Assembly: GCF_017348835.2 (NCBI RefSeq)
Contig: NZ_CP071375.1
Length of the DNA stretch: 64,000 nt
Strand: one strand, 5' to 3'
Source of the DNA: Escherichia coli
GTDB taxonomy: Bacteria; Pseudomonadota; Gammaproteobacteria; Enterobacterales; Enterobacteriaceae
Positions 9,640 through 46,303 of the stretch are shown piece after piece. Numbering within the stretch: position 1 is the stretch's first letter; each line of letters starts with the position of its first letter. The position numbers and the translations under genes were made by a program. The notes below the pieces were generated by a model. The model did not search any database and was not told the origin of the DNA. It saw only the letters and a program-made list of their open reading frames with translations.

Positions 9640-10311
9640 TCAGGCAATATTTAGATATTTATGTGTTTGCATCGACAAACGCCAATTACGCGCAATGCAG
9701 GTTTCAATGCACAAACGTGTGGCATCATCCTTTTGGCTAATCGGCTGCAGTGCAATGACTCGCGGTTTATCATCGGTCAGCGTCGCCAAAAGTTCATCCA
9801 GTGCTTCAATATCACGTACGCGTCCCACTGGATGCTTGATTTCGTTGGCTCGCTCCAGTGCCTGTGACAACACTTCATAGCCGCCGCGCATGTTCAGCTT
9901 TGGCGATACGGTAACCCAGGTATTCGGTGTACAGCGTACTTCATGAGTACCACTGGTTTCGATCTGGCAGCTAAAACCGTTCTTTTCGAGCAGGTCAGTC
10001 AGTGGCAGCAAATCATGAATGCAAGGCTCACCACCCGTAATCACCACATGCCGCGCGGTATATCCCTGGCGACCAATGACAGCCAGCAAGTCTTCACTGC
10101 TCGCCGCCCCCCACTTATCACTCTCTTTGGTCTTCGCCAGAATGCTGAAAAGGGAGACTTCCCGATCCTCAAGCTTTTCCCAGGTGTGTTTGGTGTCGCA
10201 CCAGGCACAGCCAACCGGGCATCCCTGTAAACGAATAAAAATGGCGGGGACGCCGGTAAAGTAACCCTCACCTTGCAGGGTCTGGAACATCTCGTTAATC
10301 GGGTACTGCAT
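9640..10311 (-). CDS. queE: 7-carboxy-7-deazaguanine synthase (radical SAM, queuosine biosynthesis)
   Basis: 223-aa ORF MQYPINEMFQTLQGEGYFTGVPAIFIRLQGCPVGCAWCDTKHTW; CxxxCxxC-type radical SAM cluster motif. Confidence 0.95.
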   Translation of the reverse strand: MQYPINEMFQTLQGEGYFTGVPAIFIRLQGCPVGCAWCDTKHTWEKLEDREVSLFSILAKTKESDKWGAASSEDLLAVIGRQGYTARHVVITGGEPCIHDLLPLTDLLEKNGFSCQIETSGTHEVRCTPNTWVTVSPKLNMRGGYEVLSQALERANEIKHPVGRVRDIEALDELLATLTDDKPRVIALQPISQKDDATRLCIETCIARNWRLSMQTHKYLNIA

Positions 10312-39244: not shown

Positions 39245-39892
39245 TTACTCTTCAATCCGTAACCCATAGGTTTTGAATTTCTCCAGCACTACGGCAATTT
39301 CTTCATCGCTCAGCACTGGCACCGGGTCCGTAATCGCCAGGGTCGTCAGGTAAAGTTGCGCCAGCACTTCAACTTCATGCGCCAGCCATAACGCTTTTTC
39401 CAGATTCACCTCACAAGCGATAAGCCCATGATGTTGTAACAAAGTTGCCTTACGATTTTTGAGAGCCAGCGCAACATGTTCAGAAAGTTCGCGTGTTCCA
39501 AAGGTCGCATAAGGCGCGCAAGGAATAGAATTACCGCCAGCCGCCGCAATCATGTAGTGAATAGCGGGGATCGGTCGGTTAAGAATGGAAACTGCTGTGC
39601 AATGAACGGCATGATTGTGAACAACCGCGTTGGCATCCGGTCTGCTTTGATAGGCCGCCATATGGAAACGCCATTCGCTTGAGGGGAGCTTTCCTTCCTC
39701 ATGTTTACCGTTGCCATCAATAAAGACAATATGCGACTCCGTCAGTTTTTCATATGGAATGCCTGTAGGCGTAATCAGCATCCCATCCTGATAACGTACA
39801 CTGACGTTCCCCGCGGTCCCCTGGTTCAGTCCCAGGCGGGTCATTTCCAGGCATGTGTCAATAATCTGACGAGCAAGTTTATTTCGTTCCAT
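39245..39892 (-). CDS. fucA: L-fuculose-phosphate aldolase
   Basis: 215-aa ORF MERNKLARQIIDTCLEMTRLGLNQGTAGNVSVRY... Confidence 0.97.
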   Translation of the reverse strand: MERNKLARQIIDTCLEMTRLGLNQGTAGNVSVRYQDGMLITPTGIPYEKLTESHIVFIDGNGKHEEGKLPSSEWRFHMAAYQSRPDANAVVHNHAVHCTAVSILNRPIPAIHYMIAAAGGNSIPCAPYATFGTRELSEHVALALKNRKATLLQHHGLIACEVNLEKALWLAHEVEVLAQLYLTTLAITDPVPVLSDEEIAVVLEKFKTYGLRIEE

Positions 39893-40080
39893 TAGCTACC
39901 TCTCTCTGATTCAAAACAGGGCAATAATGTTGTTCCTTTCACACTATTGAATTAGCCGTTTAATTACCCAACATCTTCTTCCTGATTAACCAGAAAGAAA
40001 TTCACAAGCTTATATTTTGTGACCTGGTTCAACTAATCACAGTAAATAACTGCAAGTTCTCTTTTTATAACCCCATTAAA

Positions 40081-40176
40081 AATGACCGCTCTTAAAAATA
40101 TTTATCAAAACGGTCATTTTTCTATTCACCTAAGCCAGGAATGACCGTTTTCGGCATAAACAATTAATACGGTCAT
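40081..40176. promoter_or_regulatory. fucAO / fucPIKUR divergent control region: two inverted-repeat pairs of TGACCG / CGGTCA half-sites (candidate FucR operators)
   Basis: AATGACCG at 40081-88 with CGGTCATT at 40111-18; AATGACCG at 40140-47 with CGGTCAT at 40170-76; a fifth TGACCG at 40278-83. Assignment to FucR is inference. Confidence 0.4.
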
Positions 40177-40438
40177 CTGTTTTGTGTTTTTTATGATTTA
40201 TTTTCTGAAACGGGCATGAAATTTCGATTATTAAAGTGATGGTAGTCACATAAAGTCACCTTCCAGCTAATAAGTGTGACCGCCGTCATATTACAGAGCG
40301 TTTTTTATTTGAAAATGAATCCATGAGTTCATTTCAGACAGGCAAATATTCACTGATATGAAGCCCGAACTCGCTGGTTTTGCACTTTTGAAAACATAAC
40401 CGATTACGTGCTTAAGCTTCTGAACCTAAGAGGATGCT

Positions 40439-41755
40439 ATGGGAAACACATCAATACAAACGCAGAGTTACCGTGCGGTAGATAAAGATGCAGGGCAAAG
40501 CAGAAGTTACATTATTCCATTCGCGCTGCTGTGCTCACTGTTTTTTCTTTGGGCGGTAGCCAATAACCTTAACGATATTTTATTACCTCAATTCCAGCAG
40601 GCTTTTACGCTGACAAATTTCCAGGCTGGCCTGATCCAATCGGCCTTTTACTTTGGTTATTTCATTATCCCAATCCCTGCTGGGATATTGATGAAAAAAC
40701 TCAGTTATAAAGCAGGGATTATTACCGGATTATTTTTATATGCCTTGGGCGCTGCATTATTCTGGCCCGCTGCAGAAATAATGAACTACACCTTATTTTT
40801 AGTTGGCCTATTTATTATTGCAGCCGGATTAGGTTGTCTGGAAACTGCCGCAAACCCTTTTGTTACGGTATTAGGGCCGGAAAGCAGTGGTCACTTCCGC
40901 TTAAATCTTGCGCAAACATTTAACTCATTTGGCGCAATTATCGCGGTTGTCTTTGGGCAAAGTCTTATTTTGTCTAACGTGCCACATCAATCGCAAGACG
41001 TTCTCGATAAAATGTCTCCAGAGCAATTGAGTGCGTATAAACACAGCCTGGTATTATCGGTACAGACACCTTATATGATCATCGTGGCTATCGTGTTACT
41101 GGTCGCCCTGCTGATCATGCTGACGAAATTCCCGGCATTGCAGAGTGATAACCACAGTGACGCCAAACAAGGATCGTTCTCCGCATCGCTTTCTCGCCTG
41201 GCGCGTATTCGCCACTGGCGCTGGGCAGTATTAGCGCAATTCTGCTATGTCGGCGCACAAACGGCCTGCTGGAGCTATTTGATTCGCTACGCTGTAGAAG
41301 AAATTCCAGGTATGACTGCAGGCTTTGCCGCTAACTATTTAACCGGAACCATGGTGTGCTTCTTTATTGGTCGTTTCACCGGTACCTGGCTCATCAGTCG
41401 CTTCGCACCACACAAAGTCCTGGCCGCCTACGCATTAATCGCTATGGCACTGTGCCTGATCTCAGCCTTCGCTGGCGGTCATGTGGGCTTAATAGCCCTG
41501 ACTTTATGCAGCGCCTTTATGTCGATTCAGTACCCAACAATCTTCTCGCTGGGCATTAAGAATCTCGGCCAGGACACCAAATACGGTTCGTCCTTCATCG
41601 TTATGACCATTATTGGCGGCGGTATTGTCACTCCGGTCATGGGTTTTGTCAGTGACGCGGCGGGCAACATCCCCACTGCTGAACTGATCCCCGTACTCTG
41701 CTTCGCGGTCATCTTTATCTTTGCCCGTTTCCGTTCTCAAACGGCAACTAACTGA
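40439..41755 (+). CDS. fucP: L-fucose:H+ symporter (MFS)
   Basis: 438-aa ORF MGNTSIQTQSYRAVDKDAGQSRSYIIPFALLCSLFFLWAVANNLNDILLPQFQ... Confidence 0.97.
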   Translation: MGNTSIQTQSYRAVDKDAGQSRSYIIPFALLCSLFFLWAVANNLNDILLPQFQQAFTLTNFQAGLIQSAFYFGYFIIPIPAGILMKKLSYKAGIITGLFLYALGAALFWPAAEIMNYTLFLVGLFIIAAGLGCLETAANPFVTVLGPESSGHFRLNLAQTFNSFGAIIAVVFGQSLILSNVPHQSQDVLDKMSPEQLSAYKHSLVLSVQTPYMIIVAIVLLVALLIMLTKFPALQSDNHSDAKQGSFSASLSRLARIRHWRWAVLAQFCYVGAQTACWSYLIRYAVEEIPGMTAGFAANYLTGTMVCFFIGRFTGTWLISRFAPHKVLAAYALIAMALCLISAFAGGHVGLIALTLCSAFMSIQYPTIFSLGIKNLGQDTKYGSSFIVMTIIGGGIVTPVMGFVSDAAGNIPTAELIPVLCFAVIFIFARFRSQTATN

Positions 41756-45571: not shown

Positions 45572-46303
45572 ATGAAAGCGGCACGCCAGCAAGCGATAGT
45601 CGACCTGCTGCTGAACCATACCAGCCTGACCACGGAAGCTCTCTCTGAACAGCTAAAGGTCAGTAAAGAAACCATTCGTCGCGATCTCAATGAATTACAG
45701 ACGCAGGGTAAAATTCTGCGCAATCATGGGCGCGCTAAATATATCCACCGTCAAAATCAAGACAGTGGCGATCCCTTTCACATCCGGCTGAAAAGCCATT
45801 ATGCGCATAAAGCAGATATCGCGCGCGAGGCGCTCGCGTGGATTGAAGAAGGGATGGTGATAACCTTAGACGCCAGTTCAACTTGCTGGTATCTGGCACG
45901 CCAGTTGCCTGACATCAACATTCAGGTCTTCACCAATAGCCATCCGATTTGCCATGAACTCGGTAAACGCGAACGCATTCAACTGATCAGTTCCGGCGGC
46001 ACACTTGAGCGCAAATATGGCTGTTACGTCAATCCCTCGCTGATTTCCCAACTTAAATCGCTGGAAATCGATCTGTTTATTTTTTCTTGTGAAGGGATCG
46101 ATAGCAGCGGCGCACTGTGGGACTCCAATGCCATCAACGCTGATTACAAATCGATGCTATTAAAACGTGCCGCGCAATCGTTGTTATTGATTGATAAAAG
46201 TAAATTTAATCGTTCAGGGGAAGCCCGCATCGGGCATCTGGATGAGGTAACGCACATTATTTCTGATGAGCGCCAGGTTGCAACTTCTTTGGTAACAGCC
46301 TGA
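45572..46303 (+). CDS. fucR: DeoR-family transcriptional activator of the fuc regulon
   Basis: ORF 45563..46303; start at MKAARQQAIVDLLLNHTSLTTEALSEQLKVSKETIRRDL (HTH). Confidence 0.93.
   Translation: MKAARQQAIVDLLLNHTSLTTEALSEQLKVSKETIRRDLNELQTQGKILRNHGRAKYIHRQNQDSGDPFHIRLKSHYAHKADIAREALAWIEEGMVITLDASSTCWYLARQLPDINIQVFTNSHPICHELGKRERIQLISSGGTLERKYGCYVNPSLISQLKSLEIDLFIFSCEGIDSSGALWDSNAINADYKSMLLKRAAQSLLLIDKSKFNRSGEARIGHLDEVTHIISDERQVATSLVTA

What the first reader, a model, noticed from the sequence alone, without database searches (positions are those of the whole stretch)
40081..40283. Two evenly spaced inverted-repeat pairs of TGACCG half-sites in the divergent fuc control region
AATGACCG...CGGTCATT occurs twice with about 22 bp between half-sites (40081-40118 and 40140-40176), with a fifth TGACCG at 40278-40283. 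The phased arrangement between divergent operons looks like tandem operators for a dimeric regulator; FucR (DeoR family) is the obvious candidate, but I cannot confirm the assignment from sequence.
Basis: partly seen in the sequence, partly recalled or inferred. Interest (0 to 1): 0.4.

Follow-up and report, generated by a model that had tools for sequence, protein, structure and literature searches.

The report
Known FucR operators, arranged as pairs
The four paired TGACCG/CGGTCA repeats between the E. coli fucose operons are binding sites of the fucose activator FucR, already published in essence; the fifth copy belongs to a CRP site, and the only new detail is that the sites sit in rigid 28-bp inverted pairs conserved across enteric bacteria.

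Summary
ATGACCG-N22-CGGTCAT occurs twice (40082-40117 and 40141-40176), against 0 expected.

The FucR interpretation is right but already published. Zhang et al. 2024 (PMC11011485) named and mutated the two left half-sites as OFucR3 (40081-40095, >50-fold loss of PfucAO) and OFucR2 (40140-40154, about 30% loss). They used a DAP-seq FucR motif, ..AAAACGG(T/G)CAT.. Zhou et al. 2025 (PMC11894529) speak of four known FucR sites.

The fifth TGACCG lies inside the mutationally validated CRP site OCrp0 (40272-40293). Its G varies in orthologues and within E. coli.

My footprinting of 50 fucA-fucP regions, from Escherichia to Yersinia and Photorhabdus, adds four points:
- Core-to-core offset within a pair is always 28-29 bp.
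- The linker between the two pairs varies from 20 to 53 bp, so the pairs are not phased to each other.
- There is a further conserved site F (40204-18), with a conserved degenerate partner E' (40183-91).
- Each group lies at a fixed distance from its own CRP sites. This suggests an A/B unit for fucAO and a C/D+E'/F unit for fucPIKUR.

Verdict: ordinary, known regulation, with a modest new architectural detail.

The parts
40081..40095 (-). FucR site A = published OFucR3/OR3 (ttaagagCGGTCAtt on the - strand; core TGACCG 40083-40088)
   Evidence: The sequence is identical to OFucR3 of PMC11011485, whose mutation lowers fucose-induced PfucAO more than 50-fold. It scores 12/15 against the DAP-seq consensus. 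It is conserved as TG[ACT]CCG in orthologues.
40104..40118 (+). FucR site B, inverted partner of A (atcaaaaCGGTCAtt; core 40111-40116)
   Evidence: It scores 15/15 against the published consensus, the best match in the region. It is conserved 28-29 bp from A in all genera. It is not named or mutated in the text of PMC11011485.
40140..40154 (-). FucR site C = published OFucR2/OR2 (ccgaaaaCGGTCAtt on the - strand; core 40142-40147)
   Evidence: The sequence is identical to OFucR2, proposed from DAP-seq. Its mutation lowers induced PfucAO by about 30%. It scores 14/15.
40163..40177 (+). FucR site D, inverted partner of C (attaataCGGTCAtc; core 40170-40175)
   Evidence: It scores 14/15. The C-to-D offset is 28 bp in 41 loci. 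D lies outside the minimal PfucAO fragment V5 (-270, window 40162), which keeps full activity.
40183..40191 (.). E': conserved TGTGTTTTT (orthologues TGTGG[CG]TTT), 28 bp left of F; possible degenerate partner half-site
   Evidence: The columns are conserved. Photorhabdus has a canonical TGACCG at this position. E' scores only 7/15 against the consensus, so its role is unproven.
40204..40218 (+). FucR site F (tctgaaaCGGGCAtg; core CGGGCA 40211-40216)
   Evidence: It scores 12/15. Most orthologues have a perfect AAACGGTCAT here. F lies a fixed 40-42 bp from D and 24-25 bp from CRP site OCrp1.
40272..40293 (.).
   Evidence: It is the reverse complement of the OCrp0 sequence given in PMC11894529. 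Mutation of OCrp0 was used there to show CRP dependence. TGTGAC and TCAT are invariant in orthologues, but the G of TGACCG varies.
40235..40250 (.). CRP site, inferred to be OCrp1 (AGTGAtggtagTCACA)
   Evidence: It matches the CRP consensus, is invariant in orthologues and lies 39-40 bp from OCrp0. It is on the fucA side of the IS5 target, which the paper places between OCrp0 and OCrp1. The published sequence of OCrp1 itself was not seen.
40015..40036 (.). CRP site OCrp2 (tttTGTGAcctggtTCAactaa), centre 40025.5 = -70.5 from the PfucAO start
   Evidence: It is the reverse complement of the OCrp2 sequence in PMC11011485, whose mutation lowers PfucAO 14- to 350-fold. It lies a fixed 64-65 bp from site A.
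39926..39947 (.). CRP site OCrp3, in the fucA leader
   Evidence: It is the reverse complement of the OCrp3 sequence in PMC11011485, whose mutation has about a 30% effect.
39955..39955 (-). PfucAO transcription start (5'RACE, 63 nt upstream of the fucA ATG)
   Evidence: From PMC11011485. Base 39955 is G on the + strand, which is the published 'C' on the - strand.
40267..40270 (.). IS5 target (CTAA), between OCrp1 and OCrp0
   Evidence: PMC11894529 gives insertion at -374.5, about -374 to -371 from the fucA ATG, between OCrp0 and OCrp1. The window position is approximate, within +/-3 bp.
45572..46303 (+). fucR, the DeoR-family activator that reads the sites
   Evidence: RefSeq annotation 'L-fucose operon activator'. 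Pfam HTH_DeoR 6.8e-23 and DeoRC 1.9e-45.
39245..39892 (-). fucA (first gene of fucAO)
40439..41755 (+). fucP (first gene of fucPIKUR)

Best explanation
The four paired half-sites are recognition elements of FucR, the fuculose-1-phosphate-activated DeoR-family activator. The motif is AAAACGG(T/G)CAT.

The elements are arranged as long inverted repeats. The cores lie 28 bp apart and are separated by an AT-rich 22-bp spacer, whose inner 4 bp on each side form the A/T tract of the motif.

The region holds three such units: A/B (40081-40118), C/D (40140-40177), and E'/F (40183-40218), whose left half is degenerate.

Each unit keeps a fixed distance to the CRP sites of one promoter.
- The A/B dyad lies 74 bp (about 7 helical turns) from OCrp2, which is at -70.5 of PfucAO.
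- The C/D, E'/F, OCrp1 and OCrp0 dyads follow one another at 41, 43 and 40 bp (about 4 turns each), leading into PfucPIKUR.

With fucose present, FucR occupies these units and, as Zhang et al. proposed, helps CRP occupy its weak promoter-proximal sites. CRP then recruits RNA polymerase.

The fifth TGACCG is only the overlap of a CRP half-site (TGTGA) with the following bases in OCrp0.

Shown: motif identity, the function of A and C (published), conservation, and the rigid geometry. Inferred: that one FucR dimer, or half of a tetramer, reads one pair; that B, D and F are occupied; and the assignment of the units to the two promoters.
For: **Published function**
- OFucR3 (= A) and OFucR2 (= C) were mutated with >50-fold and about 30% loss of fucose-induced PfucAO. 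The motif came from DAP-seq with FucR.
- Zhou et al. speak of four known FucR sites, all on the fucA side of the IS5 site.

**Match to the motif**
- The sites score A 12, B 15, C 14, D 14 and F 12 of 15 against the consensus.

**Footprinting of 50 fucA-fucP regions**
- The core is TG[ACT]CCG / CGG[TGA]CA, with invariant CGG and CA.
- The only '> then <' offsets within 80 bp are 28 (79 cases), 29 (11 cases) and 68-71 (43 cases, the C-to-F distance).
- Distances: OCrp2-to-A 64-65, A-to-B 28-29, C-to-D 28, D-to-F 40-42, F-to-OCrp1 24-25, OCrp1-to-OCrp0 39-40. B-to-C varies from 20 to 53.

**Specificity**
- There are 88 pairs in the fuc intergenic regions against 5 in the other ~1.25 Mb of the loci.
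- 30 of 31 FucA-paralogue loci without fucR have no pair.
- The one exception, Serratia sp. DD3 (L059), has a single pair plus an OCrp2-like site at the same distance, in front of fucA/fucO-like genes and with no fucPIKUR nearby.

**Other support**
- Spacers are 83% AT, against 64% for the intergenic regions.
- The minimal fragment V5, which lacks D, E' and F, keeps full PfucAO activity.
- IS5 insertion between OCrp1 and OCrp0 makes cells Fuc-.
- Fifth site: it is identical to the published OCrp0, and its G varies.
Against: - No footprint or gel shift at B, D, E' or F is available. Baumgart 2021 could not be read.
- I could not see Fig. 1 of Zhou 2025, so I do not know which sites are its 'putative OR0 and OR1'. 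B, D and/or F may therefore already be drawn there.
- Mutation of C costs PfucAO about 30%, so the two modules are not fully independent.
- A 28-bp core spacing is 2.7 helical turns. The two cores face about 120/240 degrees apart, which is awkward for a compact dimer.
- The oligomeric state of FucR is unknown, and no solved relative with DNA exists.
- Half-sites can decay singly: E' in most genera, and A in Kosakonia and Photorhabdus.
- The fucP transcription start used for the phasing argument on that side is inferred, not read from a source.
Confidence: 0.8

Rival explanations
1. Each 15-bp element is an independent FucR site, and orientation decides which promoter it serves. Elements that read towards fucA (A, C) serve PfucAO; those that read towards fucP (B, D, F) serve PfucPIKUR. 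On this view the inverted pairing is only a by-product of packing two sets of sites into one divergent region.
For: The published naming treats the sites singly and splits them into OR0/OR1 for fucPIKR and OR2/OR3 for fucAO. A and C, which have the same orientation, both affect PfucAO. The DAP-seq motif is asymmetric.
Against: The 28-29 bp offset inside each pair is fixed from Escherichia to Photorhabdus, while the B-to-C linker changes by more than 30 bp. Interleaved independent sets would not need this. Serratia sp. DD3 keeps both A and B in front of fucA/fucO alone, with no fucPIKUR next to it. Fragment V5 retains B and has full activity, but B was never mutated on its own.
Confidence: 0.25
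2. All five TGACCG copies, including 40277-40282, are FucR half-sites.
For: The hexamer is exact. It lies in the same control region, and many orthologues also have TGACCG there.
Against: The hexamer is embedded in TGTGAccgccgTCATA, the published and mutated CRP site OCrp0. It lacks the A-tract and the CAT and scores 10/15, a score that 6304 of ~128,000 15-mers in the window reach exactly, with about 2,800 more scoring higher. Its last G is A or T in E. albertii, Salmonella and another E. coli, whereas CCG is invariant in true sites. It has no partner at +28. The IS5-borne fusion promoter that uses this site is FucR-independent.
Confidence: 0.04
3. The inverted repeats act as DNA or RNA hairpins or cruciforms, or are bound by a regulator other than FucR.
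For: As single strands, the arms fold better than shuffles do (z = -6.1 and -2.8).
Against: The region lies upstream of both transcription starts, so it is not transcribed from either known promoter. At the one variable core position, partner arms are complementary in 40 of 82 units against 33.6 expected by chance, so there is no compensatory change. The arms are conserved as sequence. FucR DAP-seq and the fucose-specific mutant phenotypes point to FucR.
Confidence: 0.03

Closest known systems
E. coli FucR binding sites OFucR2/OFucR3 (OR0-OR3) of the fucPIKUR/fucAO intergenic region (Zhang et al. 2024, PMC11011485; Zhou et al. 2025, PMC11894529; motif from Baumgart et al. 2021)
   Same: It is the same locus, the same sequences (A = OFucR3, C = OFucR2), the same regulator and the same co-dependence on CRP.
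   Different: The papers' texts treat the sites as single 15-bp elements. The words inverted repeat, palindrome, dimer and tetramer do not occur in the 2024 paper. The fixed 28-bp pairing, site B as partner of A, the E'/F unit, and the two rigid promoter-specific modules come from the comparison made here.
Operators of other E. coli DeoR-family regulators (DeoR, GlpR, AgaR, UlaR); from general knowledge, not tested here
   Same: The regulator family is the same (HTH_DeoR + DeoRC). The effectors are sugar phosphates, and there are several cooperating sites per control region.
   Different: Those regulators are repressors. Their sites are short palindromes or tandem repeats that overlap or flank the promoter. 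FucR is an activator whose sites lie 110-240 bp upstream, with cores 28 bp apart.
BusR (GntR family) 'molecular ruler' operator: two motifs separated by a fixed 22 bp (PMC8517857)
   Same: The recognition sequence is bipartite, with an obligatory long fixed spacer of 22 bp between the elements.
   Different: The protein family is unrelated, and BusR is a repressor. There a tetramer with a coiled-coil spacer was shown by cryo-EM and by +5 bp spacer tests. For FucR nothing comparable has been measured.
CRP co-activated sugar promoters with a specific activator upstream of CRP (e.g. araBAD, rhaBAD, melAB, malE/malK); from general knowledge
   Same: A pathway-specific activator and CRP are both required. 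The sites are helically phased, and the promoter-proximal CRP sites are weak.
   Different: There the specific activator usually sits between CRP and the polymerase, or next to the -35 element. Here CRP is promoter-proximal and FucR lies 60-150 bp further upstream.

Membership tests
FucR binding site of the fuc regulon | Match to the experimentally derived FucR motif G(A)C(T)C(G)A(C)A(G)A(TC)A(T)CGGT(G)CAT(A)T(CG) | tested here: met
   A scores 12/15, B 15/15, C 14/15, D 14/15 and F 12/15. The fifth TGACCG scores only 10/15, and E' 7/15. On its own the degenerate consensus is weak: 19 hits of 14 or more in the window.
FucR binding site of the fuc regulon | Loss of fucose induction when the site is mutated | not testable with these tools
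   Published for A (>50-fold) and C (about 30%) in PMC11011485. No mutation of B, D, E' or F was found in the papers I could read.
FucR binding site of the fuc regulon | Direct binding of FucR at the position (footprint, EMSA or DAP-seq peak) | not testable with these tools
   According to PMC11011485, DAP-seq (Baumgart 2021) proposed OFucR2. The primary paper is not held. No footprint is known to me.
FucR binding site of the fuc regulon | Conserved in orthologous control regions and co-occurring with fucR | tested here: met
   All 49 orthologous loci with fucR next to fucA/fucP, plus the window, carry the sites. 30 of 31 FucA-paralogue loci without fucR carry none. There are 88 pairs inside the intergenic regions against 5 elsewhere.
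Inverted-repeat operator read as one unit by a symmetric oligomer | Fixed spacing between the two arms across evolution | tested here: met
   The offset is 28 bp in 79 cases and 29 bp in 11 cases, with no other offset. The neighbouring linker varies from 20 to 53 bp.
Inverted-repeat operator read as one unit by a symmetric oligomer | Both arms required, and spacing changes abolish binding | not testable with these tools
   This needs mutagenesis or EMSA. Single arms can be degenerate in some genera (E', and A in Kosakonia and Photorhabdus).
CRP binding site (for the fifth TGACCG) | TGTGA-N6-TCACA dyad | tested here: met
   TGTGAccgccgTCAtA at 40275-40290 matches 9 of 10 dyad positions. It is identical to the published OCrp0.
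CRP binding site (for the fifth TGACCG) | Conservation follows the CRP half-sites rather than the FucR core | tested here: met
   TGTGAC and TCAT are invariant. The base that completes TGACCG is G, A or T among orthologues, and A in another E. coli.
   The cores lie 128-220 bp upstream of the PfucAO start at 39955, and more than 100 bp upstream of the conserved -10-like hexamer of PfucPIKUR. Published genetics show FucR is an activator.
Structural hairpin / cruciform | Compensatory changes that keep the arms complementary | tested here: not met
   40 of 82 units are complementary at the variable position, against 33.6 expected if the arms were independent.

The most novel reading that the evidence does not exclude
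FucR does not read isolated 15-bp sites. It reads long inverted repeats whose cores are held exactly 28 bp apart, a ruler-like operator new for the DeoR family.

The fuc control region would then consist of two autonomous activation modules.
- An A/B unit is phased 7 turns from CRP site OCrp2 and serves fucAO. This module exists alone in Serratia sp. DD3.
- A C/D + E'/F array is phased with OCrp1 and OCrp0 and serves fucPIKUR.

This would reassign the published OFucR2 mainly to fucPIKUR. It would also make the unmutated site B, the best consensus match, essential for fucAO.
Probability: 0.45. Interest if true: 0.4.

Novelty: already known. Interest (0 to 1): 0.25.

Why it matters
It matters little beyond the fuc system. 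FucR sites in this region, and their cooperation with CRP, are published.

The comparative result would refine that picture in four ways:
- Arm spacing within a pair is fixed.
- The linker between the pairs is variable.
- There is a third, half-degenerate unit.
- Both groups are phased with CRP sites.

The result also gives concrete mutants to make: B, D, F, E' and spacer +5 bp. If it is borne out, it would be a first description of how an activator of the structurally unsolved DeoR family spaces its DNA-binding domains. It would also help to explain why IS5 insertion between OCrp1 and OCrp0 silences fucPIKUR.

Tried and rejected
**Fifth TGACCG as a FucR site.** Rejected. It is part of the published CRP site OCrp0 and is not conserved as TGACCG.

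**Phasing between the two pairs.** The 59-bp repeat distance in E. coli is not conserved.

**Hairpin or cruciform role.** Rejected for lack of covariation.

**Promoter and terminator scan of 39850-40480.** Nothing was found. This fits activator-dependent promoters but is uninformative.

**Solved structures.** PDB sequence searches with FucR found nothing at E <= 0.001. At E <= 10 they found only the E. coli DeoR C-terminal domain at E = 0.2. No relative is solved with DNA, so the binding geometry could not be modelled. I did not run structure prediction, because a monomer model would not settle dimer spacing.

**Papers not held.** Baumgart 2021, Zhang 2010, Podolny 1999 and Chen 1989 could not be read.

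**Positions of 'OR0/OR1'.** They could not be recovered from the text or the supplements of Zhou 2025.

**Other searches.** A search for DeoR-family operator architecture and the MtnR paper gave nothing specific to FucR.

**FucR helix-turn-helix conservation.** The invariant S.ETIRRDL segment is a family-wide feature and does not discriminate.

**Single-motif scan of the window.** AAACGGKCAT gives 17 matches against 9.9 expected. Single sites are barely above chance; only the clustering and pairing are significant.

Full report
**Where we are.** The window is E. coli chromosome. The 546-bp stretch 39893-40438 is 100% identical to strain PE164 and is present in 5,012 of 5,426 complete E. coli genomes. 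RefSeq annotation places it between fucA (39245-39892, minus strand, followed by fucO) and fucP (40439-41755, plus strand, followed by fucI, fucK, fucU and fucR). FucR has Pfam HTH_DeoR and DeoRC domains.

**The observation.** The sequence reads AATGACCG (40081-88) ... CGGTCATT (40111-18) and AATGACCG (40140-47) ... CGGTCATc (40170-77). Each pair has 22 bp between the hexamer cores.
- ATGACCG-N18-26-CGGTCAT matches only these two places in the window, with none in 100 shuffles.
- The hexamer alone is common: 59 copies in 64 kb.

**What is already published.** Zhang et al. 2024 (PMC11011485) took the FucR motif G(A)C(T)C(G)A(C)A(G)A(TC)A(T)CGGT(G)CAT(A)T(CG) from the DAP-seq study of Baumgart et al. 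2021. They named two sites:
- OFucR2, ccgaaaaCGGtCAtt, is the reverse complement of window 40140-40154.
- OFucR3, ttaagagCGGtCAtt, is the reverse complement of window 40081-40095.

Mutating OFucR3 lowered fucose-induced PfucAO more than 50-fold, and mutating OFucR2 lowered it by about 30%. They mapped the PfucAO start 63 nt upstream of the fucA ATG, which is window 39955. They validated CRP sites OCrp2 (window 40015-40036, centre -70.5) and OCrp3 (39926-39947). They proposed that FucR helps CRP to bind.

Zhou et al. [quoted passage not shown] They also refer to 'all four known binding sites' on the fucA side of the IS5 insertion point, which is about window 40266-40270, between OCrp1 and OCrp0.

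The 2024 text contains none of the words inverted repeat, palindrome, dimer, tetramer or DeoR. I could not see the figures, so I do not know which sequences OR0 and OR1 are.

**The fifth copy.** Zhou et al. give OCrp0 as taaTaTGAcggcggTCACActt, the reverse complement of window 40272-40293. They mutated it to show CRP dependence of the IS5 fusion promoter, which is FucR-independent.
- The fifth TGACCG is the overlap of the CRP half-site TGTGA with the next three bases.
- Read as a FucR site it scores 10/15. It has no A-tract, no CAT and no partner 28 bp away.
- In orthologues TGTGAC and TCAT are invariant, but the last base of TGACCG is G, A or T. It is A in another E. coli.
- OCrp2 likewise reads TGTGACCG in some genera and TGTGACCT in E. 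coli. The hexamer therefore arises repeatedly inside CRP sites.

**Phylogenetic footprint.** A scan of species-representative genomes with FucA gave 80 loci. Of these, 49 have fucA and a divergent fucP-type transporter gene with fucR downstream. The other 31 carry a FucA paralogue without fucP or fucR.

In an alignment of 24 intergenic regions the conserved blocks are the four half-sites, a fifth FucR-type site F, three CRP sites and the fucP promoter/leader. Site F is window 40204-40218. It reads CGGGCA in E. coli and AAACGGTCAT in most genera. The true core is CGG[T/G/A]CA, and Salmonella uses CGGGCA throughout.

With that core, the only offsets within 80 bp between a TGNCCG and a following CGGNCA in the 50 regions (49 loci plus the window) are 28 (79 cases), 29 (11 cases) and 68-71 (43 cases, which is C to F).

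Every distance in the region is fixed to within one or two base pairs, except one:

| Interval | Distance (bp) |
|---|---|
| OCrp2 to A | 64-65 |
| A to B | 28-29 |
| B to C | 20-53 (variable) |
| C to D | 28 (29 in one locus) |
| D to F | 40-42 |
| F to OCrp1 | 24-25 |
| OCrp1 to OCrp0 | 39-40 |

Even within E. coli, 13 of the 54 differences between two strains fall in the 18-bp B-C linker. Each is locked to its own side.

**A third unit.** Exactly 28 bp to the left of F lies a conserved TGTGG[C/G]TTT, which is TGTGTTTTT at 40183-91 in E. coli. In Photorhabdus a canonical TGACCG occupies that position. I read this as a degenerate partner half-site, E'. Its conservation as TGTGG is unexplained, and it scores only 7/15.

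**Geometry.** The dyad centres are OCrp2 40025.5, A/B 40099.5, C/D 40158.5, E'/F 40199.5, OCrp1 40242.5 and OCrp0 40282.5.
- The steps are 74 bp (7.0 turns), then the variable 59 bp, then 41, 43 and 40 bp (about 4 turns each).
- Where D-to-F is 42 bp, OCrp1-to-OCrp0 is 39 bp, so the total is kept.
- The spacers are 83% A+T against 64% for the intergenic regions. The four inner bases on each side are 93% A+T, the A-tract of the motif.

**Specificity and controls.**
- The relaxed pair pattern occurs 88 times in the fuc intergenic regions and 5 times in the other ~1.25 Mb of the loci. Four of those five are G+C-rich coding matches.
- Thirty of 31 FucA-paralogue loci have no pair, even allowing one mismatch.
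- The exception is informative. Serratia sp. DD3 (L059) has one canonical pair (AAATGCCCGTTT...TAAACGGGCATTTT) 190 bp upstream of fucA/fucO-like genes. An OCrp2-like site (aTTGAgctttgTCACA) lies at the same 48-bp distance as in true fuc loci. There is no fucPIKUR within 8 kb. The A/B unit with OCrp2 thus behaves as a self-contained fucAO module. This argues against the idea that B is there to serve fucP.
- At the one variable core position, the two arms are complementary no more often than chance (40 of 82 against 33.6 expected). The arms are protein-recognition sequences, not a hairpin. The single strands do fold better than shuffles.

**Mechanism.**
- *Shown (published):* FucR and CRP are both needed. 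A is essential and C contributes to PfucAO. A fragment ending at window 40162, which lacks D, E' and F, has full PfucAO activity. IS5 insertion between OCrp1 and OCrp0 makes cells Fuc-.
- *Shown here:* the conservation and the rigid geometry.
- *Inferred:* fuculose-1-phosphate-bound FucR binds each long inverted repeat as a symmetric unit. That unit would be a dimer, or half of a tetramer, with flexible linkers on bendable AT-rich DNA. It would sit on the same helical face as the CRP dimers and stabilise CRP on the weak promoter-proximal sites. OCrp2 has TCAAC and OCrp0 has TCATA in place of TCACA. CRP then recruits RNA polymerase. A/B would serve fucAO, and C/D plus E'/F would serve fucPIKUR.

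**Weak points.**
- A 28-bp spacing is 2.7 turns, so the cores do not face the same way.
- The oligomeric state of FucR is unknown, and no relative is solved with DNA.
- C does contribute about 30% to PfucAO.
- The fucP start (about 40323) is my inference from the conserved GAAAAT at 40311-16.

**Comparison and verdict.** The feature is the known set of FucR binding sites of the E. coli fuc regulon. It differs from the operators of the DeoR-family repressors DeoR and GlpR (general knowledge) in position, orientation and spacing. In its fixed 22-bp gap it resembles the BusR 'molecular ruler' operator, but without any shared ancestry. Novelty: already known. The paired architecture and the module assignment are modest, testable additions. 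Interest 0.25.

Noticed in passing
window 40183-40191: A conserved TGTG[G/T]nTTT block (TGTGTTTTT in E. coli) lies exactly 28 bp left of FucR site F. Photorhabdus has a canonical TGACCG at this position. It is not clear why the degenerate form is itself conserved.
   Followed up: partly
L059:7806-7915 (Serratia sp. DD3): A single FucR-type inverted pair and an OCrp2-like CRP site, at the E. coli spacing, lie upstream of fucA/fucO-like genes (8001-8648, 8696-9844). The upstream ORFs (2968-7716) look like a sugar ABC transporter. No fucPIKUR or fucR lies within 8 kb.
   Followed up: partly
window 40303-40335 and 40367-40372: The fucP promoter/leader holds blocks conserved across genera. One is TTTATTTGAAAATGAATCCATGAGTTCATTTC, which includes the small palindrome ATGAGTTCAT. 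A second is GAACTC. Zhang et al. mention a predicted SrsR site in this leader, but its function is unknown.
   Followed up: no
window 40104-40118: Site B is the only 15/15 match to the published FucR consensus in the control region. It lies between OFucR3 and OFucR2 but is not named or mutated in the text of the 2024 paper.
   Followed up: yes
window 40122-40139: The linker between the two pairs is a polymorphism hot spot within E. coli. It holds 13 of the 54 differences between this window and another E. coli (L003). The FucR cores change only at their one tolerant position (40144).
   Followed up: yes
window 40015-40036 and 40272-40293: The two promoter-proximal CRP sites, OCrp2 and OCrp0, both start TGTGACC and have weak right halves (TCAAC, TCATA). 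In Raoultella and Enterobacter they are nearly identical 14-mers (TGTGACCGCCATCA). The upstream OCrp1 is near-consensus.
   Followed up: partly
L042, L048, L054 (Edwardsiella): The intergenic region is about 1 kb, and the divergent transporter is only 40% identical to FucP. The A/B, C/D and F sites and their spacing are nevertheless kept.
   Followed up: no
L025, L032-L039, L043-L045, L047, L049, L051-L053, L055-L058, L060-L064, L066-L068, L071: Thirty species carry an 81-88% identical FucA paralogue in a context without fucP, fucR or FucR sites. Some of these genera (e.g. Citrobacter, Buttiauxella) also have species with the true fuc locus in this set. The pathway of the paralogue was not examined.
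   Followed up: no
L030, L014: Records titled Martelella alba (an alphaproteobacterium) and Serratia marcescens carry Enterobacteriaceae-type fuc loci with 88-92% FucA identity. This suggests mislabelling or contamination of those assemblies.
   Followed up: no
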